Assembly: GCA_963742735.1 (NCBI GenBank)
Contig: CAVUMN010000004.1
Location: 864,001-928,000, forward strand
Source of the DNA: an uncultured Actinomycetes bacterium
GTDB taxonomy: Bacteria; Actinomycetota; UBA4738; JBBDTT01
DNA: 64,000 nt
Direction of reading: 5' to 3'
Below, one piece after another: positions 1 through 16,051 of the stretch. The position numbers and the translations under genes are program-made. The notes beneath the pieces are model-generated. The model had not been told where the DNA came from and did not search any database. It saw only the letters and a program-made list of their open reading frames with translations. How positions within the stretch are numbered: the stretch's first letter is position 1; each line of letters begins with the position of its first letter.

Positions 1-733
1 CGAGCAGCCACCCGAGGTCGAGCAGCGGATCGCCGATCGTGGACTGCTCCCAGTCGACGATGGCGGCGAGCCGCGCCGGGCTCTGCGGCGCGAACATCAC
101 GTTGATGAACTGGTAGTCGCCGTGCAGGATCGCCGGCTCGGTGCCCTCGGGGCGCGCCTCGTCGAGCCACCCCGCGACCTCGTCCAGCCCCGGGAGGTCG
201 CGGCTCCGGTAGGTCTCCAGCTGTCCGAGCCATCGCCCGACCTGCCGCTCGAGGAAGCCCTCCGGCTTGCCGAACCCCTCCAGCCCGACGGCCCGCCAGT
301 CGACGTTCGCCAGCTCCGCGATCCCCTCGACCAGACGCAGCCCCATGTCCCGGCGGACGCCGGCGTCCCGGTCGAACGGCGGCGGGAGTGGCTCGCGCGG
401 CGCGAACCCCTCGACCTTCTCCATGACGAAGAACGGCGCGCCGATGACGGCGTCGTCCTCGCAGAGCAGCAGGGGCGTCGGATGCGGGACGGCCGTGCCG
501 TCCAGCGCCTTCAGCACCCGGAACTCCCGTCCCATGTCGTGCGCGCTCCTCGAGACCTTGTGCCGGGGGGGACGGCGCAGGATCCAGGTGTCGCCGCCGC
601 GGACGAGCTCGAACATCTCGTTGGAGGCCCCGCTCGAGACGCGGTCGGCGGTGAAGGGCTCGCCCGCGCCGGGGAGCCGGTCGCCCACCCAGGCGTCGAG
701 CGCGGGAAGGTCGATCAGGCCGCGGTCAGTCAA
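1..733 (-). CDS. Phosphotransferase (APH/choline-kinase-like) family protein, 3' end beyond window
   Basis: Manual translation from TTG at 733: LTDRGLIDLPALDAWVGDRL...SSGASNEMF...WILRRPP...HDMGREFRVLKAL, with LHGDYQFINVMF and AIVDWEQSTIGDP kinase motifs near the window start; overlaps the ACAD stop. Confidence 0.88.
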   Translation of the reverse strand, partial: MTDRGLIDLPALDAWVGDRLPGAGEPFTADRVSSGASNEMFELVRGGDTWILRRPPRHKVSRSAHDMGREFRVLKALDGTAVPHPTPLLLCEDDAVIGAPFFVMEKVEGFAPREPLPPPFDRDAGVRRDMGLRLVEGIAELANVDWRAVGLEGFGKPEGFLERQVGRWLGQLETYRSRDLPGLDEVAGWLDEARPEGTEPAILHGDYQFINVMFAPQSPARLAAIVDWEQSTIGDPLLDLGWLL

Positions 734-1994
734 CGCTGAGCGCGTCCAGGACCGTGGCGAACCTCGCCCGCGCGGCCTCGCGGCGGGTGGGGACGTGCTC
801 GCTGGGCCACGGGCCGTCGTGGGGCTCGACGTCCTTCAGGGCCCGGCGGGCGATCGTCACACGGTGGACCTCGTCGGGTCCGTCCATGATCGGCAGGGCC
901 CGCGCGAGCCGGTACATCCCCTCCAGCGGCAGGTCTTCCGAGTACCCGAGGGCGCCGTGGATCTGCAGGGCGCGGTCGATCACGTCGTGCAGGGCTCCGG
1001 AGACGAAGACCTTCGCCGCCGCGATCTCGGTCCGGGCGCCGGACGAGCCCTGCTGATCGGTGACCCACGCCGCGTGCAGGACCAGCAGCCGCGCGGCGTG
1101 GATCTGGATCCACGAGTCGGCGATCCAGTTCTGGACGGTCTGCTTGTCGGCGAGGACGCTGCCGTGCGCGTAGCGCGACACCGCCCGCTCGCGGAGCATG
1201 TCGAAAGCCCGGCCCATCTGGCCCAGGTAGCGCATGCAGTGGTGCAGGCGGCCCGGGCCGAGCCGCTTCTGGGCGATCGTGAACCCCTCGCCCTCGCCGC
1301 CCAGCAGCGCGTCGGCCGGCAGGCGCACGCCCTCGTAGAGGATCTCGGCGTGGTGGGGCCCGCCGTACATTCCGGCCACCTCGCGAACGATGTTCACGCC
1401 CGGGGTTCCGCGGGGGACCAGGAACATCGACGCGCGGGAGTGGGGCTCGGCGCCGGGGTCGGTGACCGCCATGACGATCAGGAACTCGGCGATCGCGGCG
1501 TTCGAGCTGAACCACTTGTGCCCGTCCAGGACCCACTCGTCGCCGTCGCGGACGGCGTGCGTCTCCAGGAGCGTCGGATCCGAGCCGGCGTTCGGCTCGG
1601 TCATCGAGAAGCACGACCGGATGCGGCCGTCCAGGAGCGGCGCCAGGTACTTCGCGCGCTGCTCCTCGGTCCCGTACATCGCGAGGATCTCCGCGTTGCC
1701 GGTGTCGGGGGCCTGGCACCCGAACACCTCGGGCGCGTGGCGCGTCCGGCCGAGGATCTCGTTCATCAGGGCGAGCTTCACCTGGCCGAACCCCCGGCCC
1801 CCGAGGTCGGGACCCAGATGGCAGGCCCAGAGGCCGCGTTCCTTCACCGCGGCCTTCATCGGCTCGGTGACGGCGCGCAGCTGTTCGTCGGTGAGCTCGA
1901 GCGTCTCCAGCGGCGTGACCTCGTCGCGGACGAACGCGCGCATCCACTCGAGATGGGGCTCGAACTCCGGGTCGGTCGAGAAGTCCCAGCTCAT
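726..1994 (-). CDS. Acyl-CoA dehydrogenase (ACAD10/11, LvaC-like subgroup)
   Basis: Start MSWDFSTDPEF (ATGA overlap at 1991-1994); motifs APDTGNAEIL, CFSMTEP, GHKWF, RLGPGRLHHCMR, DGPDEVH. Confidence 0.92.
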   Translation of the reverse strand: MSWDFSTDPEFEPHLEWMRAFVRDEVTPLETLELTDEQLRAVTEPMKAAVKERGLWACHLGPDLGGRGFGQVKLALMNEILGRTRHAPEVFGCQAPDTGNAEILAMYGTEEQRAKYLAPLLDGRIRSCFSMTEPNAGSDPTLLETHAVRDGDEWVLDGHKWFSSNAAIAEFLIVMAVTDPGAEPHSRASMFLVPRGTPGVNIVREVAGMYGGPHHAEILYEGVRLPADALLGGEGEGFTIAQKRLGPGRLHHCMRYLGQMGRAFDMLRERAVSRYAHGSVLADKQTVQNWIADSWIQIHAARLLVLHAAWVTDQQGSSGARTEIAAAKVFVSGALHDVIDRALQIHGALGYSEDLPLEGMYRLARALPIMDGPDEVHRVTIARRALKDVEPHDGPWPSEHVPTRREAARARFATVLDALSVD

Positions 1995-2446
1995 CCGGCG
2001 GCGAGCTCCCGCTTGCGGGCCTTCCAGCGTTCGATCATGTCGATGAACGCCTGGGGGTTGTACGCGTCCTCCTCGTAGGACCACCGCCCGTCGCCCGCGT
2101 ACTTCAGGAGGGTGAGGTTCGCCTCCTCGTGGACGCTCCCGTCGCCGGGGTCCTCCATGCGGTTCCAGATCTTGCAGGCGATCCAGCCGCGCTCGGTGTC
2201 GACGATGTACCACTCGATCGGGAACAACGGCATGGCGTTGCCCGGGAAGACGCTCATCACCTGGGTGATCCAGGTCCGGATGGCCTCGCGGCCGTGCATG
2301 GTCCCGAAGAGGTGCTCGACGTAGGTGGCGTCCTCGGTGAACAGGTCGGCCCACGCGTTCCAGTCCTTCGTGCGTCCGGCCTCCTCGCCGACGCGCTGGT
2401 AGTCGGCGAAGGCCTCCTCGAGCTCGTCGCGCGACCAGGTCTCCAT
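1991..2446 (-). CDS. NTF2/SnoaL-like protein
   Basis: DWNAWADLFTEDATYVEH...GREAIRTWI...YAGDGRWSYEEDAYNP. Confidence 0.85.
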   Translation of the reverse strand: METWSRDELEEAFADYQRVGEEAGRTKDWNAWADLFTEDATYVEHLFGTMHGREAIRTWITQVMSVFPGNAMPLFPIEWYIVDTERGWIACKIWNRMEDPGDGSVHEEANLTLLKYAGDGRWSYEEDAYNPQAFIDMIERWKARKRELAAG

Positions 2447-2456
2447 CGCCCGCAGC

Positions 2457-3374
2457 CTAGCCGCGGAGCGCGGGCAGCACGTCCCGCGCGAACAGCTCGG
2501 TCCCGGTCGTCACATCGGCGCGGCCGAAATGGCAGACGAAGTGGGTGACGCCGGCATCGGCGTACTCGCGCAGGCGGGGCAGGACCTGCTCGGGGGTCCC
2601 GGCCACGACCCGCTCGCCGTACAGGCGGGCGTTGCGATTGTCCGAGCCGCGAGCCCGCTCGGCGCGGGCCGCGACGCGGTCGCCGTCCTCGTCCACCCAC
2701 ACCGGTCCGTAGTACGTGACCTCGGGCATGGGCCGCCCCTCGCCCTCGGCGTAGGCGCGCAGGCGATCGGCGCGCGCGGCGACGTCCTCGGGCGCCAGCA
2801 GCGGGGCGTTCCACGCGTCGGCGAACCGCCCGGCGACGCGGAGCAGCCCGTCGCCCCGCCCGCCGATCCAGATCGGGGGACGCGGCGACTGGAGCGGGCG
2901 CGGGCAGTCGGCCACGCCGTCGCCCGAGTACCAGCGGCCGGTGAACGCGCGCCCCTCCCACATCCCCGTCAGCACCTCCAGGGCCTCGGCCAGGCGTTCC
3001 GCGCGCTCGGCCCCTTCGAGCCAGGGGTAGCCGAACGAGTCGTACTCCGCGCGGTAGCCGCCGGCGCCGATGCCCAGGTTGAGCCGGCCGCCGCTCAGGT
3101 GGTCGAGCGTGGCCGCGGCGCTCGCCAGCCATGCCGGGTTCCGGAACGCCTCCGCGAGCACCAGCGGGCCGCATCGGATCGTCGAGGTGCCCAGCAGGAC
3201 GGCGGTCAGCGTCGTCCACGCCTCCCACACCGGGCTGCCCGGGGCGACGGCGATCACGCGGAGGTGGTCCTCGACCCACACGGAGTCGAACCCGAGCGAC
3301 TCGGCGAGACGAGCGTGCTCGACGACCGTGCCCAGGTCGGCCCCCTCCTGGGGGACGAGGATCCCGACCTTCAC
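2457..3374 (-). CDS. LLM-class (probably F420-dependent) oxidoreductase
   Basis: AESLGFDSVWVEDH, ATLDHLSGGRLNLGIGAG, PPIWIGGRG. Confidence 0.9.
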   Translation of the reverse strand: MKVGILVPQEGADLGTVVEHARLAESLGFDSVWVEDHLRVIAVAPGSPVWEAWTTLTAVLLGTSTIRCGPLVLAEAFRNPAWLASAAATLDHLSGGRLNLGIGAGGYRAEYDSFGYPWLEGAERAERLAEALEVLTGMWEGRAFTGRWYSGDGVADCPRPLQSPRPPIWIGGRGDGLLRVAGRFADAWNAPLLAPEDVAARADRLRAYAEGEGRPMPEVTYYGPVWVDEDGDRVAARAERARGSDNRNARLYGERVVAGTPEQVLPRLREYADAGVTHFVCHFGRADVTTGTELFARDVLPALRG

Positions 3375-3405
3375 GAGGCGTTCACGAGGCGTTCACGAGG
3401 CGTTC
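3370..3405. repeat. Tandem repeat (TTCACGAGGCG)x3 plus TTC at a gene junction
   Basis: Exact 11-bp units at 3370-3380, 3381-3391 and 3392-3402. Confidence 0.95.
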
Positions 3406-4493
3406 TTCGCGGCGAGCTGGACCGCGTCGACGCAGTCGTCCGCCGTGATGCCCGCCGCCGCGTCGGGCTGATCGACGTCCTCGGCGTCGAGGACGGAGCG
3501 CACTCGTGTCAGCAGCTCCTCTCGGTCGGCCGCGTTCGCCCCCGCGAGCGCGCCGGCGACGCGCTCCATGGCGTCGGGCGGGGACAGGTGCATGTCCCCG
3601 GCCATCAGCGCACGCACGATCGTGCCGGCCTCGTCCACGGCCACGCCCGCACGGACGAGCTTCTTGCCCTTCACGTTGGCGAAGCCGACCCGCGAGCCCT
3701 CCGGCGCCGTCTCGGTGAACCGCGAGGTCGAGGTACGCCGGACCCAGTCGTCGGAGCTCACCAGGTCGGCGAAGCCGGGCGCGCCGGCCGCCTCCTCGAC
3801 GGTGAGCTCGCTGTCCTCCAGGTCCAGGCCGAGCACCTCACGGCTCGCGGAGGCGATCGCGTCGCGGAACTCCTCGTAGCCGAGGTCGGTGCCGCGGACG
3901 TCGGCCGGCGTGCAGATGTAGGCGACCGCGTCCTTGATGACCTTGTCCTTGAACTTCTCCTCGGGGACGCGGGCGACGCGCGCGTACAGCTCGAGGTCCG
4001 GGCGCTTGAGGTTGAAGAACGAGCCCACCACGTTCACGCCGAGGGCGGTCTGGCTGATCAGCGCGCCGAGCTTGCGCCCGTTCCAGCGCAGGTCGGAGCT
4101 CCCCTCGAAGGCCACCTCGGCCAGCCCGAGGTCGTCCAGGGCCCGGCGCATGGCCGGGCGGAAGTGCTCCAGCGCCTCGTCGAGGTCGGGCCACCGGGCG
4201 GGGGAGAGGAAGTACGAGAACATCGCCACCGCGTCGGTGTCGTAGAACGCGGCGCCACCGCCCATGATCGGCCGGCGGAAGACGTCCACGCCGGCGTCGC
4301 GAGCCGCCGCGAGGTCCAGCACCGCGTCGACGTCCTCGAACCACCCCACCTGGAAGTGCCCGCGGCTCCACCGGGCGGTCATCAGGATCTCGGGGCCGCC
4401 GTTGATCACGCTCCCGGCCATGGTCGGCATGCGCCCGAACATCACGGGGGCCTCGACGGGCCCGATGTCGACGAACCGCCAGCGGTCCGGCAT
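3393..4493 (-). CDS. Lipoate-protein ligase family protein (LplA catalytic domain plus C-terminal LplB-like domain)
   Basis: VFRRPIMGGGAAFYD (cf. RRxxGGGAVYxD), DLRWNGRKLG with the catalytic Lys, RVPEEKFKDK, C-terminal AGDMHLSP. Confidence 0.82.
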   Translation of the reverse strand: MPDRWRFVDIGPVEAPVMFGRMPTMAGSVINGGPEILMTARWSRGHFQVGWFEDVDAVLDLAAARDAGVDVFRRPIMGGGAAFYDTDAVAMFSYFLSPARWPDLDEALEHFRPAMRRALDDLGLAEVAFEGSSDLRWNGRKLGALISQTALGVNVVGSFFNLKRPDLELYARVARVPEEKFKDKVIKDAVAYICTPADVRGTDLGYEEFRDAIASASREVLGLDLEDSELTVEEAAGAPGFADLVSSDDWVRRTSTSRFTETAPEGSRVGFANVKGKKLVRAGVAVDEAGTIVRALMAGDMHLSPPDAMERVAGALAGANAADREELLTRVRSVLDAEDVDQPDAAAGITADDCVDAVQLAAKNAS

Positions 4494-4499
4494 CCGCGG

Positions 4500-5204
4500 C
4501 TAGGAGGAGACCGTTCGCTCGAAGCCCTGGGCCACCGCGGTGGTCGCCTCGAGGACCTCGCGGACCCCCCACTTCGACCGCTCGAGGAGCTCCTCGGAGG
4601 TGCAGTACTTGCGGATCATCTCGATGGCCCGGCCGGCATGCTCCTCGTCGGCCTCGAGGTGCATGAAGAAGAACTCCAGGTCGTGCTCCGATAGCCCGTA
4701 CTGGTCCCGGTAGATCTGTCCGAGGAAGGCCATCGTCCACGTCCGGGCCTCGATGCCGTAGGACAGCGCCGCCAGCCCCACCACGAAGTGCTCCTCAATG
4801 CAGAGCTTGAGGATCCGATCGACCCACTGGCGGCTCTCCGGGATCGGCTCCACGTCGAACGGGTCGGGGATGTCGGCGCCGAGGGCTCGCGCGAACCGGG
4901 TGACCAGCTGGATGTGGTCGCGCTCGTCGTCGCCCTCGCCGTGCTCCTCCCAGAGGTTCTCGAGCATGAGTTCGCGCACGTCGCGCGGAGCGGCGTTGGC
5001 ATACACGGCGGCGATGAACCGTTTGAACTGGTCCACCTGGAACGGGTACGAGGTCGCGAAGGGGACGAGCTTCTCCTTCGGGATCAGGCCCTGGGCGAAC
5101 TGCTGCATGAAGGGCCGCTCCTCGAACAGGACGCTGCGCGTGACCTCCTCGAGCTCCTTCACGACGCGGTCGGGATCGACGGCGGTGGCTGTGTTCGGTG
5201 GCAT
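4500..5204 (-). CDS. Heme-oxygenase-like diiron oxidase (TenA/PqqC/CADD superfamily)
   Basis: ENLWEEH...H, SYGIE and HLEADEEH (H-x3-D-x2-H) iron-ligand pattern; helical, 234 aa. Confidence 0.82.
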   Translation of the reverse strand: MPPNTATAVDPDRVVKELEEVTRSVLFEERPFMQQFAQGLIPKEKLVPFATSYPFQVDQFKRFIAAVYANAAPRDVRELMLENLWEEHGEGDDERDHIQLVTRFARALGADIPDPFDVEPIPESRQWVDRILKLCIEEHFVVGLAALSYGIEARTWTMAFLGQIYRDQYGLSEHDLEFFFMHLEADEEHAGRAIEMIRKYCTSEELLERSKWGVREVLEATTAVAQGFERTVSS

Positions 5205-5281
5205 CGTTCGATGATTGCACGCGAATCGGAGGCGCTGCTAGGTTCGCCGCTCTCACCCACTCGCAAAGAAGGAGTCAACGC

Positions 5282-6199
5282 ATGGGCTTGCTGGACGGAC
5301 GCGTCGCGGTGGTGACCGGCTCGGGCCGGGGGATCGGCCGGGGGATCGCCCTGGAGCTGGCGAGCGAGGGCGCGAAGGTCGTCATCAACGACGCGGGCGT
5401 CGACGTGGACGGCCGCGGCGGCTCGGAGGACCCGGCCGCGCAGGTCGTCAAGGAGATCGAGGCCGCGGGCGGCGAGGCCGTCGCGAACTACGGTGACGTG
5501 TCGAAGTGGGACGAGGCCCGGGGCATCGTCCAGGCGGCCGTCGACGCGTTCGGCAAGATCGACATCGTCGTGAACAACGCCGGCATCCTCCGCGACAAGT
5601 CGCTGCTCAAGATGGAGGAGGAGGAGTTCGACGCGGTGATCGGCGTGCACCTGAAGGGCACCTTCAACGTCACCCGCCACGCCGCCGGGCTCATGAAGGA
5701 GCAGGGCTATGGCCGGATCATCAACATCGTCTCCAGCGCGGGGCTGCGGGGGAACTTCGGGCAGACCAACTACTCCGCGGCCAAGGCCGGGATCGCGGGC
5801 ATGACCCTCACGTGGGCGATCGAGCTCGGGAAGTACGGGATCACGGTGAACGCCATGGCGCCCGCGGCGGTCACCCGGATGACGACGGGGCTGCTCACCG
5901 CCGACCCGGAGAAGATCCCGCCCGAGATGGACCCGAAGAACAACGCGCCGATGATCGCGTTCCTGGCCAGCGAGGCCGCCGGACACGTGAACGGGCAGGT
6001 TCTGGGGCGCCGCGGCTACACCTACACGATCTTCCAGCAGTACAAGATCATCGCCGGCATGTACCAGGCCGGCGGGTGGAAGCCGGCCGACGTCGCGAAG
6101 CAGTTCGACACGATCCTCGCCGGCTACATGACCGCGCCCGGCATGGACATCACTATCAAGAAGCCGGAGAAGGCGGACGGCGAGACGAAGGCGGGCTGA
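5282..6199 (+). CDS. SDR family oxidoreductase (MFE-2/3-hydroxyacyl-CoA dehydrogenase-like)
   Basis: RBS AAGGAG; MGLLDGRVAVVTGSGRGIG, NNAGILRD, YSAAK. Confidence 0.92.
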   Translation: MGLLDGRVAVVTGSGRGIGRGIALELASEGAKVVINDAGVDVDGRGGSEDPAAQVVKEIEAAGGEAVANYGDVSKWDEARGIVQAAVDAFGKIDIVVNNAGILRDKSLLKMEEEEFDAVIGVHLKGTFNVTRHAAGLMKEQGYGRIINIVSSAGLRGNFGQTNYSAAKAGIAGMTLTWAIELGKYGITVNAMAPAAVTRMTTGLLTADPEKIPPEMDPKNNAPMIAFLASEAAGHVNGQVLGRRGYTYTIFQQYKIIAGMYQAGGWKPADVAKQFDTILAGYMTAPGMDITIKKPEKADGETKAG

Positions 6200-6639
6200 T
6201 GGAGGTCAGCTACTCGGAGGAGGGCCGCGTCCCCGGCCCGCCGGAGGCGGCCTACGACCTCCGCGTCGACTTCACCCGGCTGCCCGAGTACAACCCGAAT
6301 GTCTCGAACCTGGTCCGCACCGACGGCGGTCATACGAGCGGCGCCGGCGCGGTATACGGCTTCGACATGACGATGCCAGACATGGGCGCGGTGTCGGGCG
6401 TGATCTCGGTTTTGGAGGCGGACCGGCCCTCTCGCGTGTACACGCGGACGGACTCCGGGGTGTTCTCCGCACTCGAGGAGGTCCGCTTCGTGCCCGACAG
6501 CGAGGGAACGCGGGTGACGTTCGACGTGGTCGTGGAGGTGCCCGACGACATGGAGGCCGTCGCCCCCATGGTCGACGCGTCGGGGCGCGAGCAGGTTCGC
6601 CTGGAGCTCGACCACATGGCGAAGGTGCTCGGCTCGTGA
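6199..6639 (+). CDS. SRPBCC/START-like protein
   Basis: MEVSYSEEGRVPGPPEAAYD...DFTRLPEYNP...EADRPSR; TGATG coupling to the SDR. Confidence 0.75.
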   Translation: MEVSYSEEGRVPGPPEAAYDLRVDFTRLPEYNPNVSNLVRTDGGHTSGAGAVYGFDMTMPDMGAVSGVISVLEADRPSRVYTRTDSGVFSALEEVRFVPDSEGTRVTFDVVVEVPDDMEAVAPMVDASGREQVRLELDHMAKVLGS

Positions 6640-7427
6640 CCGGCCGCCTGCAGGGCCGGGTGGCGATCGTGACCGGCGCCGGCCAGGGGCTCGGCCGGGC
6701 CTACGCGCTGCGCTTCGCGGAGGAGGGCGCGAAGGTCGCCGTCGCGGAGATCAACGACGCGAACGGCGAGGCGGTCGCCAAGGAGATCGCCGACGCGGGC
6801 GGTGAGTCGATGTTCGTCCACGTCGACGTCTCGGACGAGGAGTCGACCCTGGCCATGGCCAGGGCCGTAGCCGAGCGTTTCGAGCGCATCGACATCCTGC
6901 TCAACAACGCCGGGCTGTACTTCGACCTCGACCAGAAGGACGACTCGCTCGAGTACCTGAAGCACGTGATCGACGTGAACATGCTCGGGCCGTGGCTGTG
7001 CGTCCGCGCGGTGTTCCCGTTCATGAAGGCCCAGGGCGGCGGGAAGGTCATCAACCAGTCGAGCGGCGCCGCATGGATGTACGCGATGTCGGGCTACGCG
7101 ATGCGCTCCGACGCCGAACGCGTCCCGAGCTACCACTACTCGGTGTCGAAGGCGGGGGTGAACGCGTTCACCCACTTCCTGGCCGCGGCCCTCGGCCAGT
7201 TCGGGATCAACGTGAACGCCATCGCGCCGGGCGTGGTGATGACCGAGGCCACCAAGAAGCACGTCCCCGAGCAGATGGTGGGGATGATCAAGATGGCCTC
7301 GTCGCTGCGCCGCACCCTGGAGCCCGAGGAGATCACCGGCACGGCGGTGTTCCTGGCGAGCGACGACGCGAACGCCATCACCGGCCAGGTCATCCCGGTC
7401 GACGCCGGCGTCACGATGCTGGGATGA
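6636..7427 (+). CDS. SDR family oxidoreductase
   Basis: TGAGQGLG, NNAG, YSVSK, ITGQVIPVDAG. Confidence 0.92.
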   Translation: MTGRLQGRVAIVTGAGQGLGRAYALRFAEEGAKVAVAEINDANGEAVAKEIADAGGESMFVHVDVSDEESTLAMARAVAERFERIDILLNNAGLYFDLDQKDDSLEYLKHVIDVNMLGPWLCVRAVFPFMKAQGGGKVINQSSGAAWMYAMSGYAMRSDAERVPSYHYSVSKAGVNAFTHFLAAALGQFGINVNAIAPGVVMTEATKKHVPEQMVGMIKMASSLRRTLEPEEITGTAVFLASDDANAITGQVIPVDAGVTMLG

Positions 7428-7855
7428 CCCCCGAGCCGGTCGACGTACCACACGACCTCGAGCCCTCCCTGCAGCGCCTGCTCGGGATCAAGATGTCGTT
7501 CGGCCCGAACGGCGAGGGCATCGCGTGGGTCGAGATCGACAAGGACAAGCACTACGGCCGCACGCGGGTGCACGGGGGCCTGTTCCCCCCGCTGGTCGAC
7601 GTGGCCGGCGCCATCGCGGTCGCCCGCGACTCCGACGACGCGCTGAACGCCGTCGACGCCACGATCGACATGCACGTGAGCTACCTGCGCAAGGCCCGCG
7701 AGGGCGACCTGACCGCGACCGCGCGGATCGTCCGCCGCGGCCGTCGGGTGGCGGTGTGCGAGGTGGACCTCACCAACCAGGGCGAGCTGTGCGGCAAGGC
7801 CATCGTCACGTACCTGCTGCGCCCGAACTCGAAGCCCGACCCCGAGGGCGGATGA
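7424..7855 (+). CDS. PaaI family hotdog thioesterase
   Basis: VHGGLFPPLVDVAG, ATIDMHVSYLR, RRGRRVAV. Confidence 0.85.
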   Translation: MTPEPVDVPHDLEPSLQRLLGIKMSFGPNGEGIAWVEIDKDKHYGRTRVHGGLFPPLVDVAGAIAVARDSDDALNAVDATIDMHVSYLRKAREGDLTATARIVRRGRRVAVCEVDLTNQGELCGKAIVTYLLRPNSKPDPEGG

Positions 7856-8496
7856 CCGAGCTCTTCGAGGCGATCCACACGCAGCGGGCCATCCGCCGGT
7901 TCACGGACGAGCCCGTGACCGACGAGGAGATCCATCAGGTCCTGGAGGCCGCGACCAAGGCGCCCAGCGCCTCGAACACCCAGCCCTGGTCGTTCGTCGT
8001 GATCCGCGAGCCCGATCGTCGCCGCCAGCTCGCCGAGCTGTACGCGAAGAGCTGGGAGATCGCGAGGAACTTCTACGGCGACCCCGAGGCGGCCGAACAC
8101 GACTGGGAGCGCCGGATGCTCGTCGCGGTGAACGGGATGGCCGCGTCGCTGGAGTCGGCCCCGGTCCTGATCCTCGCGTGCCTGGATCGCGCCCGGCTGG
8201 GCCCGCTGGTCACCACCGACCTGGCGACGCTGCTCGATCCGCCGTCGGCGTACGGAGCGATCTGGGCGGCGGTCCAAAACCTCCTGCTCGCCGCGCGTGG
8301 CCTCGGACTGGGGACGGTTCCGACGACCCTCCACCGCCTCCACGAGCCCCAGGTCCGCGCGCTCTTCGAGCTCCCCGACACGGTCGAGCCGATGGTCCTG
8401 GTGGTGATGGGTCGGCCGGACGCGCCGTTCGGCCCCACGTCACGGGACCCGGTGGAGCAGGTGACGTTCGCGGAACGCTGGGGAGATCCGCTCTAA
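7852..8496 (+). CDS. Nitroreductase family protein
   Basis: QRAIRRF, APSASNTQPWSF, QNLLLAARGLGLG. Confidence 0.9.
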   Translation: MTELFEAIHTQRAIRRFTDEPVTDEEIHQVLEAATKAPSASNTQPWSFVVIREPDRRRQLAELYAKSWEIARNFYGDPEAAEHDWERRMLVAVNGMAASLESAPVLILACLDRARLGPLVTTDLATLLDPPSAYGAIWAAVQNLLLAARGLGLGTVPTTLHRLHEPQVRALFELPDTVEPMVLVVMGRPDAPFGPTSRDPVEQVTFAERWGDPL

Positions 8497-8711
8497 CTGC
8501 GAGAGACGCGGGGCTTCGCCCCAACGGCAAGGGCGATGGCCGTCAGGTCAGATCGCACGGAGTCGAATCGGTCGTCGAACCGCTCCATCCGATCCTCGAG
8601 GCGGTCCATCCGATCCTCGAGCGACTGGAAGCGCCCGTTCATGAAAAAGCCGAGAACGCCGGTCGCGATCGCGACGACGACAGCATTGACGATGTTGTTG
8701 GTCAGCTCCAT
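8493..8711 (-). CDS. Small membrane-anchored coiled-coil protein (72 aa)
   Basis: RBS GGGGAG; hydrophobic N-terminus IVNAVVVAIATGVLGFF followed by heptads LEDRMDR-LEDRMER-FDDRFDS. Confidence 0.7.
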   Translation of the reverse strand: MELTNNIVNAVVVAIATGVLGFFMNGRFQSLEDRMDRLEDRMERFDDRFDSVRSDLTAIALAVGAKPRVSRS

Positions 8712-8786
8712 GAGTGCTCCCCGCTTCCGGGGGAGATCCCGACCGCCCGAGCGTAGCACCGGCCACCGACAACACGAGAGGACCGG

Positions 8787-9098
8787 TCAGAACGATCGGA
8801 AGAGGCGCAGTCGCTTGGCTTCGGCGCTGTCCCACCTCTTCCACCAGCTCACCCGCCGCAGTGCTTTGACCCGCCGAACGGCTTCGACGGCGACCCGCCG
8901 CGCTTCGTCCTCCGGAAGTCCGCCGATCGACGAGATGAAGCTCGCCAGGTCGGCCTCGTCGCGCCACCGCGTACCCCATCGGAAGGGCAGGCCCATCCGC
9001 CAGCCCGGCGGGTAGATCCTGGCCCTGTGGCGTCGATCGTCGATCTCGAGGTAGAGCGGCCCGGTCGAGGTCTCGGCCACGAGCCCGGAACCGATCAT
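8787..9098 (-). CDS. Hypothetical protein (103 aa)
   Basis: ATGA-coupled to the aldehyde dehydrogenase stop; MIGSGLVAETSTGPLYLEID...; no recognisable family. Confidence 0.5.
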   Translation of the reverse strand: MIGSGLVAETSTGPLYLEIDDRRHRARIYPPGWRMGLPFRWGTRWRDEADLASFISSIGGLPEDEARRVAVEAVRRVKALRRVSWWKRWDSAEAKRLRLFRSF

Positions 9099-10549
9099 TC
9101 GACCCAGGTGACGTGCTTGAGCTCGGTGTACTCCTCGAGGCCGGCGCGCCATTCGCGGCCGATGCCGGACTGGCGGTAGCCGCCCCACGACCCGTTGAAG
9201 TTCGGGACGGCGACGCCGAGGCCGACGTAGCCGGTGCGCAGCCGTCGCGCCACCGCCTGAGCCCGGTCGCGGTTCGAGGACACGATCGCGCCGGCCAGCC
9301 CGTACATCGAGTCGTTGGCGATGGCCACGCCCTGGTCCTCGGTGACGTAGGAGATCACGCACAGGACGGGGCCGAAGATCTCCTCCTGGGCGATGCGCAT
9401 GTCGTTGCGCACGCCGGTGAACACCGTGGGCTCGAAGAAGAACCCCCGCTCGAGGTGCTTCGGTCTGCCCCCACCCGCGGCGAGCGTGGCGCCCTCCTCG
9501 AGGCCCGAGGCGACGAAGCCCTCGACGCGCTGGCGATGCTGCTCCCGGATCAGCGGCCCGACCTGCGTGCCCGGGTCCCGAGGATCGCCGACGGTCACGC
9601 TTCGGCACGTCTCGACGACGCGCTCGACGACCGCGTCGTGCATGGACTCGGGGACCAGCAGGCGCGTGGTGCAGCCGCACCCCTGTCCCGCGTGGATGAA
9701 GCAGCCGGCCACGGCGTTCATCGCCACCTCGTCGGGCGAAGCGTCGTCCAGGACGAACAGCGGGGACTTGCCGCCCAGCTCCAACTGGATCTTCTTGATG
9801 GTCTGCGCGGCGGCCGCGCCCACGCTCCGGCCGGCGGGAACGCTGCCGGTGAACGAGACCATGTCCACCAGCGGGCTCGAGACCATCGCCTGGCCGACGT
9901 CGACGCCGCCGCCGCCGATGACGTTGACGACGCCGGGAGGCAGGTCCGCCTCCTCGACGGCCCGGGCGATCTCGAACGCGTCGAGGGGGGTCCACGGCGC
10001 CGGCTTCAGCACGACCGTGTTCCCCATCGCCGTCGACATCGCGACCTTCCAGCAGTTGACGAACAGCGGGAAGTTGAACGGGGTGATCGCGGCCACGACG
10101 CCGATCGCGTCGTGGATCAGCAGCGAGCGCACGTGGAGCGGCTCCGTGGCGGGCTCGGCCTCGCGTTCCCACGCGAACGCCTCGGCCCAGTCGGCGACCT
10201 TCGAGAACGCGTCGATCGGCCACCGGCCCTGGAACGTCTTCGCCAGGATGACCGTGGCGCCCACCTCGTCGGTCACCAGCTCGGCCAGGTCGCGCCGGCG
10301 CGCGTAGAGGGCCTCGCGGACCCGGCGGAGCGCCGCCGCCCGCTCGGCCACCGGCATCCGCGGCCACGGCCCCTCGTCGAACGCCGTTCGCGCCGCGGCG
10401 ATGGCCCGTTCGGCGTCCCGGGGGTTCGGGATCGCGGCGTGGGCGATGACCTCCTCGGTCGCGGGGTTCTGGATCGCGCTGACCTCGTCGCCGTCGGGCT
10501 CCACCCACTGCCCGCCGATGAAGAAGGACTCCACGTCGCGATCGCTCAC
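9095..10549 (-). CDS. Aldehyde dehydrogenase
   Basis: GTG start coupled to the ACAD; ITPFNFP, SFTGS, LELGGK, AGQGC, QEEIFGP. Confidence 0.93.
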   Translation of the reverse strand: MSDRDVESFFIGGQWVEPDGDEVSAIQNPATEEVIAHAAIPNPRDAERAIAAARTAFDEGPWPRMPVAERAAALRRVREALYARRRDLAELVTDEVGATVILAKTFQGRWPIDAFSKVADWAEAFAWEREAEPATEPLHVRSLLIHDAIGVVAAITPFNFPLFVNCWKVAMSTAMGNTVVLKPAPWTPLDAFEIARAVEEADLPPGVVNVIGGGGVDVGQAMVSSPLVDMVSFTGSVPAGRSVGAAAAQTIKKIQLELGGKSPLFVLDDASPDEVAMNAVAGCFIHAGQGCGCTTRLLVPESMHDAVVERVVETCRSVTVGDPRDPGTQVGPLIREQHRQRVEGFVASGLEEGATLAAGGGRPKHLERGFFFEPTVFTGVRNDMRIAQEEIFGPVLCVISYVTEDQGVAIANDSMYGLAGAIVSSNRDRAQAVARRLRTGYVGLGVAVPNFNGSWGGYRQSGIGREWRAGLEEYTELKHVTWVE

Positions 10550-14470: not shown

Positions 14471-14902
14471 CTACGCCGGGTGGAACACCGGCAGGGACAC
14501 CACGTCGTCCTCGGCCCTCGCCTCCGCGCGGAAGGCCACGGCGACCGGCATGTCGCAGCGGACGTCCTCCGGGGCGATGCCCTCGATGTTCGAGGTCATC
14601 CGGACGCCCTCCTCGAGCTCGACGATGGCCACCACGTAGGGGGTCCGTTCGTTGAACGGCGGGAGGTCGTTCTGGTGGACCACGGTGAAGGTGTAGACGG
14701 TTCCGCGGCCGCTGGCCTCGATCCACTCGGTATCCGAGGACCAGCACTTCGGGCAGTAGGTGCGCGGATAGAAGAAAACCTCGCCGCACGCGTTGCACGA
14801 CTTGATGAGGAGCCGGCCATCGCGGGCGGCCTCCCAGTACGCCTCGGTCTCCACGTCGGGGACCGGCAGATGCCAGGTCTTCGTCCTCGGCATCTCGGGC
14901 AT
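14471..14902 (-). CDS. DUF35 Zn-ribbon/OB-fold protein
   Basis: CNAC...CPKC, SGRGTVYTFT, PYVVAIVELEEG. Confidence 0.92.
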   Translation of the reverse strand: MPEMPRTKTWHLPVPDVETEAYWEAARDGRLLIKSCNACGEVFFYPRTYCPKCWSSDTEWIEASGRGTVYTFTVVHQNDLPPFNERTPYVVAIVELEEGVRMTSNIEGIAPEDVRCDMPVAVAFRAEARAEDDVVSLPVFHPA

Positions 14903-16051
14903 CTACTCGACCCCCAGGATCAGCGTGCCGGTGGAGGAGAACCACCCGCCGGTGCCGTTCACCGCGGCGAGCTTCGCGCCCTCCACCTGGCGACCCTCGG
15001 CCTCACCGCGGAGCTGCCGGGCGGCCTCGATGACCAGGAACAGGCCACGCATCCCCGGATGGTTCGAGGACAGCCCGCCACCGTCGGTGTTCGTCGGCAG
15101 GTCGCCGTCGATCGTGAGCCTGCCGCCCTCGACGAATGCCCCCCCCTCGCCCTTTCCGCAGAACCCGAGGGCCTCGAGGGTGAGCAGGACCGTGATCGTG
15201 AACGAGTCGTAGACCTGGACGACGTCGATCTCGTCCGGCTTCACACCGGCCATCCCGAACGCCCGCCGGGCGCTGTGGACGGCGGGCGACTCCGTGAAGT
15301 CCTCCCACTCGGCCATGTTGTGGTGGCTCGACGCCTCCGCCGCGCCGAGGATCCACACCGGGGCTTTCGGCAGGTCCCTGGCGCGGTCCTCGCCGACCAG
15401 GACGACCGCCCCACCTCCGTCGGAGCGGATGCAGCAGTCGAGCTTGTGCAGCGGGGTGCAGATCTGCCTCGAGCCGACGACGTCCTCGACCGTGATGGGG
15501 TCGCGGTACATCGCGAGCGGGTTCCGGGCCGCGTTCGCCCGCGTCTGGACGGCCACCTCCGCGAGCTGCTCGGGCGTCGTGCCGAACTCGTGCATGTGCC
15601 GGGTCGCGGCCATGGCGTGGCGGCCGATCACCGTGTGGCCGTAGGCCGACTCGAACTGGGCCGGGCCCCGCGCGTCGATGGCCACGTTCGAGCTCCGGAT
15701 CTTGCGCTTCAGGTCGGAGCGCGAGGTGGTCGCATAGGGAAGCAAAGCCACGTCGCAGAGCCCCGCCTCGATGGCGCCGACGGCGTGATGCACGAAGAAC
15801 TCCCACGACGACCCGCCCACCTGGGTGCCGTCGACGTAGCCGGGGCGCAGCCCGAGGTACTCGCCGACGACGACGGGATGCATGTGGTGAGCGCCGCACG
15901 AGAACAGGCCGTCGACGTCGCCCTTGGTCAGGCCGGCGTCGGCGAGGGCCAGCGACGAGGCCTCAGCGTGGAGCTGGAGGGCCGTGGCGTCGGGGACCTC
16001 ACCGAACCGGGACTCGGCCACCCCGGCGACGGCGACCCTGCGGCGAGGCAT
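14903..16051 (-). CDS. Thiolase-fold (SCP-x/Ltp2-like) protein lacking the nucleophilic Cys
   Basis: VGGSSW in place of the Cys, LDCCIRSDGG, YDSF, NTDGGGLSSNHPG. Confidence 0.9.
   Translation of the reverse strand: MPRRRVAVAGVAESRFGEVPDATALQLHAEASSLALADAGLTKGDVDGLFSCGAHHMHPVVVGEYLGLRPGYVDGTQVGGSSWEFFVHHAVGAIEAGLCDVALLPYATTSRSDLKRKIRSSNVAIDARGPAQFESAYGHTVIGRHAMAATRHMHEFGTTPEQLAEVAVQTRANAARNPLAMYRDPITVEDVVGSRQICTPLHKLDCCIRSDGGGAVVLVGEDRARDLPKAPVWILGAAEASSHHNMAEWEDFTESPAVHSARRAFGMAGVKPDEIDVVQVYDSFTITVLLTLEALGFCGKGEGGAFVEGGRLTIDGDLPTNTDGGGLSSNHPGMRGLFLVIEAARQLRGEAEGRQVEGAKLAAVNGTGGWFSSTGTLILGVE

What the first reader, a model, noticed from the sequence alone, without database searches (positions are those of the whole stretch)
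2457..5204. Candidate new system: CADD-like diiron oxidase, orphan lipoate-ligase-like enzyme and LLM in one operon
Seen: an HDO gene (E...H, E, H-x3-D-x2-H ligands) 6 bp upstream of an Lpl-family gene, followed by an LLM. By eye the HDO lacks CADD's sacrificial Tyr27 (PFM instead of TFY) and Lys152, so it is probably not a pABA synthase. No lipoyl domain, GcvH/LbpA, LipA/LipS or E2 gene is in the window. Known: HDOs such as UndA, BesC and SznF perform unusual oxidations of fatty or amino acids, and Lpl enzymes adenylate carboxylates and transfer them to amines. Inference: an oxidase-adenylation-reduction module that makes or processes a modified fatty acid or cofactor, or an amide-forming pathway unrelated to lipoylation. 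I know of no described system with this pairing.
Basis: partly seen in the sequence, partly recalled or inferred. Interest (0 to 1): 0.8.

Follow-up and report, generated by a model that had tools for sequence, protein, structure and literature searches.

The report
Conserved diiron-oxidase and lipoate-ligase-like gene pair
An uncultured soil actinobacterium carries a metal-dependent oxidase gene directly in front of a very diverged lipoate-ligase-like gene; the pair recurs in related genomes inside fat-breakdown gene clusters, and its function is still unknown.

Summary
On the minus strand lie an HDO (4500-5204; PF14518), a two-domain LplA-fold ligase 6 nt downstream (3393-4493; PF21948) and an F420-type LLM (2457-3374). 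The HDO keeps all six CADD metal ligands. It has Met and Gly where CADD has Tyr27 and Lys152. The genome holds a true CADD-family paralogue elsewhere.

The pairing is conserved but narrow. Of 15 genomes with an HDO orthologue among 401 sampled, 14 have the ligase orthologue beside it. Only 13 of 80 loci holding ligase relatives carry the HDO. These form one clade, so the pairing arose once.

The ligase family is wider and patchy: 9 of 101 genomes in one Acidimicrobiia order. Without the HDO it sits among SDR, acyl-CoA ligase, ACAD and alkyl-sulfatase genes. LipB is found in 40 of 41 genomes of the window's order. LipA, GcvH and E2 lie elsewhere in this genome.

Best reading, at about 0.4: an accessory module acting on a fatty-acid-like carboxylate within a lipid-catabolic island. 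No functional coupling was shown. I rate it a new variant of known enzyme kinds, of moderate interest.

The parts
4500..5204 (-). HDO: heme-oxygenase-like dimetal oxidase, 234 aa. It belongs to an isolated subfamily, has a complete six-ligand metal site and lacks CADD's Tyr27 and Lys152.
   Evidence: PF14518 at 90.5 bits; TIGR04305 at 84.3 bits against a cut-off of 200. Alignment to 1rcw. AF2 pLDDT 92.2. Foldseek best match CtCADD, TM 0.81-0.88, 22% identity.
3393..4493 (-). Lpl-like ligase, 366 aa: an LplA-fold catalytic domain plus a strongly conserved C-terminal LplB-like domain. The catalytic Lys (K141) and the RRPxxGGGxAFY motif are kept.
   Evidence: PF21948 at 49.5 bits; TIGR00545 at 30.9 bits against a cut-off of 280. 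Invariant residues. AF2 pLDDT 90.2. Foldseek to E. coli LplA and Listeria LplA1, TM 0.66-0.78, 16-20% identity.
2457..3374 (-). Luciferase-like oxidoreductase of the F420-dependent type, 305 aa, starting 18 nt after the ligase stop.
   Evidence: PF00296 at 175 bits; TIGR03560 at 190 bits against a cut-off of 231.4. FbiC (CofG/CofH) is present in the genome.
1991..2446 (-). SnoaL-like (NTF2-fold) protein, 151 aa, starting 10 nt after the LLM stop.
   Evidence: PF13577 and PF12680. A high-identity match was found only in L001.
726..1994 (-). Acyl-CoA dehydrogenase, 422 aa. Its ATG overlaps the SnoaL stop codon by 4 nt.
   Evidence: Acyl-CoA_dh_N, _M and _1 domains. Start position worked out. Orthologues in L001, L008, L012 and L123.
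2..733 (-). APH-family phosphotransferase. It runs off the window start and overlaps the ACAD stop.
   Evidence: PF01636 at 129.5 bits. Orthologues next to the ACAD in L001, L012 and L123.
5288..6199 (+). SDR1, about 303 aa, transcribed divergently from the HDO. It is the most constant neighbour of the pair.
   Evidence: PF00106. Found at 75-90% identity beside the HDO in 13 of 13 paired loci and in L123.
6199..6639 (+). SRPBCC / polyketide-cyclase-like protein, 146 aa.
   Evidence: PF10604 at 46.4 bits. The equivalent gene cluster c38 occurs in paired loci.
6636..7427 (+). SDR2, 263 aa.
   Evidence: PF13561. Found at 70-92% identity in 10 paired loci and in L123.
7430..7855 (+). 4HBT-type thioesterase, 141 aa.
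   Evidence: PF03061. Found at 43-85% identity in 9 paired loci and in L123.

Best explanation
The three genes are the head of a co-directional, tightly spaced array: HDO, Lpl-like ligase, F420-type LLM, SnoaL, ACAD, APH. The array forms an accessory module inside a lipid or acyl-CoA catabolic island of an uncultured, 72% G+C Actinomycetota lineage.

Shown here:
- The HDO has a complete dimetal O2-activating site but not CADD's self-sacrificial residues.
- The ligase has the full two-domain LplA fold, with the catalytic Lys and the nucleotide-binding motifs. It is far outside the curated LplA equivalogue.
- The pair is retained side by side through order-level divergence.
- The ligase family is patchily distributed and lies among fatty-acid-handling genes, not lipoyl-protein genes.

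Inferred mechanism: the module works on a medium-chain, fatty-acid-like carboxylate.
1. The HDO uses O2 to oxidise the chain, by hydroxylation, desaturation or decarboxylation, as UndA-type HDOs do.
2. The ligase activates a carboxylate as acyl-AMP and hands it to an amine or thiol acceptor that is not identified.
3. The F420 LLM, SDRs, ACAD and kinase reduce or process the product towards beta-oxidation.

The ligase has probably been recruited away from housekeeping lipoylation, because the LipB/LipA route is general in this order.
For: - Gene order and spacing: gaps of 6, 18 and 10 nt, then 4-nt and 8-nt overlaps, with no terminator-like site in 1-5400.
- Metal ligands are invariant. The HDO fold matches CADD, PqqC, FlcD, UndA and BesC.
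- K141, RRPxxGGGxAFY and the PxxKFxDK loop are invariant in 44 ligase relatives. They align with T. acidophilum LplA. The fold is that of LplA.
- Co-occurrence in 401 sampled genomes of the phylum: HDO orthologues (at least 71% identity) occur in 15, ligase orthologues (E <= 1e-100) in 15, and both, adjacent on one contig, in 14.
- Spacing: 9 of 13 paired loci have the two genes within 26 nt of each other.
- Accessory status: among 31 other genomes of the window's order in that sample, only 1 has the pair. The ligase family is found in 9 of 101 genomes of an Acidimicrobiia order. LipB is found in 40 of 41 genomes of the window's order.
- Context of the wider ligase family: a same-strand SDR lies directly downstream in 39 of 80 loci. 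An alkyl-sulfatase-like gene lies directly upstream in 15 loci. AMP-binding, ACAD, thiolase, ECH, ALDH and CoA-transferase genes lie around it.
- Window context: ACADs, ECH, a ChsH2-like OB protein with an SCP-x-type thiolase, SDRs and a PaaK-like ligase.
- The C-terminal domain of the ligase is at least as conserved as the catalytic domain (0.69 against 0.64 mean top-residue frequency; 0.79 for residues 268-310). This suggests a specific extra function.
- Precedent for an LplA-superfamily enzyme outside lipoylation: MgcA in malyngamide clusters (passage read in PMC10088813).
Against: - The pairing arose once (one clade, SH-aLRT 99, quick tree). Its recurrence is therefore largely inheritance, and kin are not independent.
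- The whole block (TE, SDR2, SRPBCC, SDR1, HDO..., LLM, ACAD, APH) is syntenic, so adjacency alone may reflect block conservation.
- G098 keeps the HDO and LLM but has a HAD hydrolase and a DUF222 gene where the ligase would be.
- In 4 of 13 loci unrelated genes, including a methyltransferase and an ECH on the opposite strand, separate the HDO from the ligase.
- 67 of 80 ligase loci have no HDO.
- No substrate, acceptor or product is identified, and nothing excludes ordinary lipoate or octanoate ligation.
- Actinobacterial genomes are dense in lipid-catabolic genes, so that context is weak evidence.
Confidence: 0.4

Rival explanations
1. The ligase is simply a diverged lipoate or octanoate salvage ligase (LplA function) that modifies GcvH and E2 encoded elsewhere. 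The HDO and LLM are unrelated neighbours.
For: - It has the complete LplA two-domain fold, the catalytic Lys and the adenylate-loop motifs.
- Apart from the LipB locus beside E2, it is the only PF21948 match in this genome and in G403 and G405.
- GcvH, an E2 lipoyl domain and LipA are present in the genome.
- Salvage ligases are typically dispensable and patchy (recalled). Free octanoate from fatty-acid breakdown would be a sensible substrate in this context (inference).
Against: - It scores 30.9 bits on TIGR00545 against a cut-off of 280 and has 16-20% identity to solved LplAs.
- It is never next to a lipoyl-protein gene in the loci mapped.
- The tight, conserved placement behind an HDO or in front of an SDR is not explained.
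- The strongly conserved C-terminal domain is not expected for a purely structural accessory domain (recalled).
Confidence: 0.25
2. The genes share only a catabolic island. Each acts in a different lipid or acyl-CoA pathway, and the adjacency is inherited synteny without a shared substrate.
For: - Single origin of the pairing.
- Block-wide synteny that includes G098, which lacks the ligase.
- Variable insertions between the HDO and the ligase, and between the ligase and the LLM.
- The LLM is absent near the pair in L006 and L010.
Against: - The spacing is 6 nt or similarly small in 9 of 13 loci, despite only 60-66% (ligase) and 71-75% (HDO) identity between orthologues.
- The HDO orthologue group is found almost only where the ligase is: 14 of 15 genomes.
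Confidence: 0.2
3. The pair installs or matures a new acyl modification on a protein lysine. Either the ligase attaches a non-lipoyl acid made by the HDO, or the HDO oxidises a ligase-installed acyl-lysine. This would be an O2-dependent counterpart of octanoylation followed by LipA.
For: - Enzymes with the LplA fold normally acylate protein lysines (established knowledge of the family).
- The closest solved relative of the HDO, CADD, acts on protein-derived residues (passages read in PMC9522330).
- The conserved C-terminal domain of the ligase could be an acceptor-docking surface (inference).
Against: - No candidate carrier or acceptor gene is conserved beside the pair.
- The HDO lacks CADD's sacrificial residues.
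- The surrounding genes are small-molecule acyl-CoA enzymes.
Confidence: 0.1

Closest known systems
CADD / CT610, the self-sacrificing p-aminobenzoate synthase of Chlamydia trachomatis (PDB 1rcw, 8va9; NCBIfam TIGR04305)
   Same: Seven-helix heme-oxygenase-like fold (Foldseek TM 0.81-0.88). It is the best sequence match among solved structures (E 5e-13). The six metal ligands are identical.
   Different: - Only 22% identity.
- Scores 84.3 bits on TIGR04305 against a cut-off of 200.
- Met33 replaces the Tyr27 that CADD cleaves to make pABA (passages in PMC9522330), and Gly162 replaces Lys152.
- The genome has a separate true CADD-family gene (240.5 bits).
UndA (fatty-acid decarboxylase) and BesC, substrate-acting HDOs (PDB 4wwj, 6p5q, 7twa)
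   Same: Same fold (TM 0.71-0.81). They act on free fatty or amino acids, which fits the gene context here.
   Different: Only 13-17% identity. No substrate-binding residues could be compared, so the chemistry is inferred only.
Lipoate-protein ligase A: E. coli LplA (1x2g), Listeria LplA1 (8cri), T. acidophilum LplA/LplB (2ars, 3r07)
   Same: Two-domain fold (TM 0.66-0.78). The catalytic Lys, the RRxxGGG motif and the adenylate-binding loop PxEKFxDK are kept.
   Different: - Only 16-21% identity.
- Far below the curated cut-offs: TIGR00545 30.9/280, NF053751 49.9/550, NF053749 26.2/65.
- Pfam's Lip_prot_lig_C model does not match.
- The C-terminal domain is unusually conserved.
- The gene context is fatty-acid catabolism, not lipoyl proteins.
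MgcA, a LipM-like LplA-superfamily acyltransferase in malyngamide biosynthetic clusters
   Same: A member of the LplA superfamily proposed to work outside protein lipoylation, moving an octanoyl group into a small-molecule pathway (passage in PMC10088813).
   Different: MgcA is a LipM-type transferase that uses octanoyl-ACP and sits in a PKS/NRPS cluster. The gene here is a two-domain LplA-type ligase in a catabolic context. No sequence comparison was made.
sLpl(AB)-LbpA lipoate assembly of sulfur oxidisers (NCBIfam NF053749-NF053751)
   Same: A specialised Lpl ligase dedicated to a non-canonical acceptor. The weak HMM matches are to these models.
   Different: Scores are far below the cut-offs. 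No GcvH- or LbpA-like gene lies in the window. No hit to NCBIfam's LipA model lies in the window; LipS was not searched for. The domain order differs from the LplAB model, which has its catalytic part at positions 132-346 of 348.

Membership tests
CADD-type pABA synthase (TIGR04305) | Scores above the curated family cut-off | tested here: not met
   84.3 bits against a cut-off of 200. The paralogue at G000:C4:~1407149-1407787 scores 240.5 bits.
CADD-type pABA synthase (TIGR04305) | Sacrificial Tyr27 and Lys152 | tested here: not met
   Tyr27 aligns with Met33 and Lys152 with Gly162 in the phmmer alignment to 1rcw. Position 33 varies (M/L/I/V) among 23 orthologues. The role of Tyr27 comes from passages in PMC9522330. 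The role of Lys152 as amine donor is recalled.
HDO superfamily (PF14518, heme-oxygenase-like dimetal oxidases) | HO-like helical fold with the E, H, E and HxxxDxxH ligand set | tested here: met
   PF14518 at 90.5 bits against a cut-off of 28.9. The ligands are invariant. AF2 pLDDT 92.2 and Foldseek matches to CADD, FlcD, UndA and BesC.
PqqC / TenA (the names given by automatic annotation) | Match to the PqqC or TenA family models; a cofactor-less or thiaminase active site | tested here: not met
   No PqqC model is listed for this protein at E <= 0.01 in NCBIfam. PF03070 scores only 30.1 bits, weaker than PF14518. The full metal-ligand set is kept. That PqqC lacks these ligands is recalled.
Lipoate-protein ligase A (TIGR00545 equivalogue) | Scores above the curated cut-off | tested here: not met
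   30.9 bits against a cut-off of 280.
Lipoate-protein ligase A (LplA fold and chemistry) | Catalytic domain with the conserved Lys, the RRxxGGG motif and the adenylate-binding loop, plus an accessory domain | tested here: met
   PF21948 at 49.5 bits against a cut-off of 27. K141, R73, R74, G78-G80, K180, F181, D183 and K184 are invariant in 44 sequences. They align to T. acidophilum LplA. The two-domain model matches LplA structures.
Lipoate-protein ligase A (function) | Lipoylates or octanoylates GcvH or E2 lipoyl domains | not testable with these tools
   Acceptors exist elsewhere in the genome, with none in the window.
sLpl(AB)/LbpA system | Match to the LplAB, LplA_large or LplB models and an adjacent LbpA (GcvH-like) gene | tested here: not met
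   NF053751 49.9/550, NF053750 44/480, NF053749 26.2/65. The only GcvH match is at C3:846170.
F420-dependent LLM oxidoreductases | Bac_luciferase fold with F420-type subfamily signatures, in an organism that makes F420 | tested here: inconclusive
   PF00296 at 175 bits. The top NCBIfam hits are all F420 subfamilies but fall below their cut-offs (TIGR03560 190/231.4). FbiC-type CofH scores 513 bits in the genome. Cofactor use was not tested.

The most novel reading that the evidence does not exclude
An LplA-fold ligase family has left protein lipoylation. In this clade it works with a dedicated dimetal HDO oxidase and an F420 reductase in one of two ways. Either it makes or degrades a modified medium-chain acid through an acyl-adenylate passed to a non-lipoyl acceptor, or it installs and oxidatively matures a new acyl-lysine modification. 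Either case would be a new metabolic role for both superfamilies.
Probability: 0.2. Interest if true: 0.8.

Novelty: new variant of a known kind. Interest (0 to 1): 0.5.

Why it matters
HDOs are a fast-growing source of unusual O2 chemistry. This subfamily is small and isolated: only 12 cluster representatives at E <= 1e-30 among 1.84 billion. It has an intact metal site and no assigned substrate.

The ligase belongs to a well-populated but undescribed branch of the LplA fold, with at least 375 relatives in public data. Its gene context points away from lipoyl proteins.

If the two act together, that would give a new substrate class for LplA-type adenylation and a handle on the function of a widespread soil and freshwater Actinomycetota gene family. 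If the ligase only salvages lipoate, the finding reduces to an uncharacterised HDO in a lipid-catabolic cluster.

Tried and rejected
- Complex prediction of ligase plus HDO (alignments A3 and A2): verdict 'no answer', score 0.00; the controls were not run. I do not use it as evidence either way.
- RNA runs for window:1900-5400: none was listed.
A cluster look-up gave only automatic names ('pyrroloquinoline-quinone synthase', 'iron-containing redox enzyme'). Whether remote HDO relatives also sit beside Lpl genes is untested.
- The promoter and terminator scan of 1-5400 found 0 of each (shuffles: 0.1 and 1.1). The consensus may not suit this organism.
- The ESM Atlas search for the ligase returned only 'lipoate-protein ligase family' clusters.
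- Literature: 0 papers hold 'lipoate-protein ligase' with 'heme-oxygenase-like' and 0 hold 'lipoate protein ligase' with 'Acidimicrobiia'. A 2026 HDO review has 0 occurrences of 'lipoate' or 'ligase'. Supplementary files, which may hold SSN cluster tables in HDO papers, were not opened.
- I considered that the ligase replaces a dead LipB in this genome. LipB beside E2 is broken by several frame changes. I rejected this as a general explanation because LipB is intact in 39 of 41 genomes of the order, including the same genus. The break may be an assembly error.
- I considered pABA synthesis by the HDO and rejected it.
Full report
**1. What is there**

The window has 71.9% G+C and is G000:C4:864001-928000 of a 3.08-Mb, 5-contig assembly.

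Six co-directional genes lie on the minus strand at its left end:

| Gene | Coordinates | Length | Family evidence |
|---|---|---|---|
| HDO | 4500-5204 | 234 aa | PF14518 |
| Lpl-like ligase | 3393-4493 | 366 aa | PF21948 |
| LLM | 2457-3374 | 305 aa | PF00296 |
| SnoaL-like | 1991-2446 | 151 aa | PF13577, PF12680 |
| Acyl-CoA dehydrogenase | 726-1994 | 422 aa | |
| APH-family phosphotransferase | 2-733 | runs off the window | PF01636 |

The gaps between successive genes are 6, 18 and 10 nt, then a 4-nt ATGA overlap and an 8-nt overlap. A simple scan found no terminator-like site in 1-5400.

Five genes are transcribed divergently from the HDO: SDR1 (5288-6199), an SRPBCC protein (6199-6639), SDR2 (6636-7427), a 4HBT thioesterase (7430-7855) and a nitroreductase (7858-8496).

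Further right are two more ACADs, an ECH, an amidohydrolase, a ChsH2-like OB protein with an SCP-x-type thiolase, an SDR, a PaaK-like ligase and a branched-chain-type ABC transporter. The region is therefore a lipid or acyl-CoA catabolic island.

**2. The HDO**

- It matches PF14518 (90.5 bits). On the CADD family model TIGR04305 it scores 84.3 bits against a cut-off of 200.
- Against solved structures the best sequence match is CT610/CADD (E 5e-13).
- In that alignment the six ligands are kept (E87, H97, E152, H182, D186, H189). CADD Tyr27 aligns with Met33 and Lys152 with Gly162.
- Tyr27 is the residue CADD cleaves to make pABA (passages read in PMC9522330). The role of Lys152 as amine donor is recalled.
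- The ligands are invariant in 23 orthologues and in 12 remote relatives of 25-42% identity. Position 33 varies.
- The AF2 model is confident (pLDDT 92.2). It superposes best on CtCADD (TM 0.81-0.88, 22% identity), then on PqqC, FlcD, UndA and BesC.
- The same genome has a second HDO at C4:~1407149-1407787. It scores 240.5 bits on TIGR04305, above the cut-off, and reads HSFY and SK at the two critical places.

The subfamily is small and isolated. A profile search of 1.84 billion representatives gave 1233 hits at E <= 1e-3, 302 at E <= 1e-10 and only 12 at E <= 1e-30.

**3. The ligase**

- It matches PF21948 at 49.5 bits (cut-off 27). It is far below every curated Lpl model: TIGR00545 30.9/280, NF053751 49.9/550, NF053750 44/480, NF053749 26.2/65. 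The last of these matches residues 274-361.
- The AF2 model (pLDDT 90.2) has the two-domain LplA architecture. Its best Foldseek matches are E. coli LplA and Listeria, Streptococcus and Mycoplasma ligases (TM 0.66-0.78) at 16-20% identity.
- In 44 family members of 42-83% identity the following are invariant: R73, R74, G78-G80, Y84, K141, P177, K180, F181, D183 and K184.
- These align with the RRxxGGG motif, the catalytic lysine region and the 'VPDEKFRDK' loop of T. acidophilum LplA. An adenylate-forming ligase is therefore likely.
- The C-terminal domain is at least as conserved as the catalytic one (0.69 against 0.64 mean top-residue frequency). Residues 268-310 reach 0.79, with an invariant AGDM..P segment.

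**4. Is the pairing conserved?**

From the ligase side:
- A scan of one genome per species found 100 relatives, of which the best 80 were kept.
- tblastn with the window's proteins found the HDO in 13 of the 80 loci (L001-L012, L023). It is always upstream on the same strand, at 71-86% identity, and these are exactly the loci whose ligase is at least 60% identical.
- The two genes are within 26 nt in 9 of the 13 loci and 0.74-1.7 kb apart in 4 (L002, L004, L005, L023). In L004 the gap holds a methyltransferase and an ECH on the opposite strand.
- SDR1 is divergent from the HDO in 13 of 13 loci.
- An LLM orthologue follows the ligase in 9 of the 13 loci. It is directly adjacent in 5 and follows a 427-aa protein of no known family in 4. 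It is missing in L006 and L010, which have enough flank. L002 and L005 end too soon to tell.

From the HDO side, in an even sample of 401 genomes of the phylum:

| Feature | Genomes (of 401, G000 included) |
|---|---|
| HDO orthologue, at least 71% identity (next-best hits at most 33%) | 15 |
| Ligase at E <= 1e-100 | 15 |
| Both, adjacent on one contig | 14 |
| HDO orthologue only (G098) | 1 |
| Ligase only (G346, 49% identity) | 1 |

- In G098 the block TE-SDR2-SDR1 / HDO ... LLM ... ACAD-APH is syntenic. The ligase position holds a HAD hydrolase and a DUF222 gene.
- The two data sets overlap; for example G218:C360 is L004. They are not independent.
- The tallies include genomes flagged unpublished (G343, G148, G088, G226, G048, G018, G001, G420, G421, G418, G427). 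None of them carries the pair. They affect only the denominators, the weak paralogue hits and the LipB counts.
- A quick IQ-TREE of 77 ligase sequences puts all 13 HDO-linked rows in one clade (SH-aLRT 99, one change). Four sequences were dropped for short or interrupted matches: L023, L069, L078 and L080. The careful search did not finish.

The pairing is therefore real and retained over divergence spanning at least three GTDB families in two orders (f1, f5, f16). But it arose once.

**5. The wider ligase family**

- The other 67 loci, mostly labelled Acidimicrobiia, have the ligase at 42-54% identity and no HDO.
- 39 of the 80 loci, all among these 67, have an SDR starting within 500 nt downstream on the same strand.
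- 15 loci have an alkyl-sulfatase-like MBL gene directly upstream.
- AMP-binding ligases, ACADs, thiolases, ECH, ALDH, family III CoA-transferase and SnoaL_4 genes recur around the ligase.
- No lipoyl-protein gene turned up among the neighbour clusters I annotated.
- The family is patchy. It is in 9 of 101 genomes of the order of G401 at E <= 1e-30. It is in 1 of 31 other genomes of the window's own order within the phylum sample.
- LipB is found in 40 of 41 genomes of that order. This genome also has LipA, GcvH and an E2 lipoyl domain elsewhere. The ligase is therefore an accessory gene and is not the general lipoylation route.
- G000's own LipB is broken by several frame changes. The same-genus genome G408 has it intact, so I treat the break as a probable assembly error or a strain-level pseudogene.

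**6. Interpretation**

Shown: the gene families, intact catalytic motifs, tight spacing, conserved adjacency with a single origin, accessory distribution, a lipid-catabolic context, and a separate true CADD in the genome.

Inferred: the three enzymes share a substrate, that substrate is a medium-chain fatty-acid-like carboxylate, the HDO oxidises it, and the ligase passes an acyl-adenylate to an unknown acceptor.

I give this reading about 0.4. Simple lipoate or octanoate salvage with unrelated neighbours gets about 0.25. Shared island without a shared pathway gets about 0.2. A new protein acyl-lysine modification gets about 0.1.

The F420 assignment of the LLM rests on subfamily matches below their cut-offs and on FbiC being present in the genome.

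The APH-ACAD pair recalls the kinase-plus-ACAD logic of ACAD10/11 for 4-hydroxyacyl-CoAs (starts of the abstracts of PMC12440821 and PMC11342911, in the listing). That is a lead only.

**7. Comparison with what is known, and novelty**

Both proteins are members of known superfamilies but fail the curated family tests (CADD, LplA). I found no paper that pairs them. The nearest precedent for an LplA-superfamily enzyme outside lipoylation is MgcA (passage in PMC10088813).

I rate this a new variant of known kinds. It is a good enzymology target, with moderate interest (0.5), because no coupling has been shown. Supplementary SSN tables of HDO papers were not available and could already list this cluster.

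Noticed in passing
G000:C4:~1407149-1407787 (outside the window; L084:1471-2109, minus strand): A second HDO in the genome is a true CADD-family member (TIGR04305, 240.5 bits, cut-off 200) that keeps the HSFY tyrosine and the SK lysine. It is a likely self-sacrificing pABA synthase in this actinobacterium. Weak hits (at most 33% identity) that may be the same paralogue occur in many families of the phylum sample.
   Followed up: partly
G000:C2:203101-203616 (outside the window; L082): The LipB gene directly after the E2 gene is split over all three reading frames, with at least five frame changes and a TGA. It scores only 41 bits, whereas 39 of 41 genomes of the order, including the same genus, have it intact. 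This is either an assembly indel cluster or a pseudogene.
   Followed up: partly
window 2-733 and 726-1994, minus strand: An APH-family kinase gene overlaps the stop of an acyl-CoA dehydrogenase gene. The pair is conserved in L001, L012 and L123. It recalls the kinase-plus-ACAD arrangement of ACAD10/11 that feeds 4-hydroxyacyl-CoAs into beta-oxidation.
   Followed up: partly
L036, L038, L044, L048, L053, L058, L059, L063, L064, L073 and others (around position 10001 of each locus): In Acidimicrobiia the ligase family often sits in an apparent operon of alkyl-sulfatase-like MBL gene, ligase and SDR. The sulfatase-like gene is in 15 loci, and the downstream SDR is in 39 of 80.
   Followed up: partly
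L003:10432-11715 (+), and the same position in L007, L009 and L011: A 427-aa protein with no Pfam or NCBIfam match lies between the ligase and the LLM in four paired loci. It is absent from the window.
   Followed up: partly
L123 (G098:C80:106000-125999), about 7065-9887: In an otherwise syntenic block the ligase is missing. Its place holds a HAD hydrolase, a DUF222 protein and ORFs without a family, which suggests replacement or an insertion.
   Followed up: partly
L020, L051, L056: Three contigs are labelled Burkholderiales or Bifidobacterium breve, yet their ligase genes nest among Actinomycetota and Acidimicrobiia sequences. L051 and L056 are nearly identical to 'Actinobacteria bacterium IMCC26207'. 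The MAG labels or binning look doubtful.
   Followed up: no
window 14471-16051, minus strand: A ChsH2-like OB-fold/zinc-ribbon protein lies next to an SCP-x-type (Thiolase_C_1) thiolase. This pairing is typical of steroid or branched side-chain degradation clusters.
   Followed up: no
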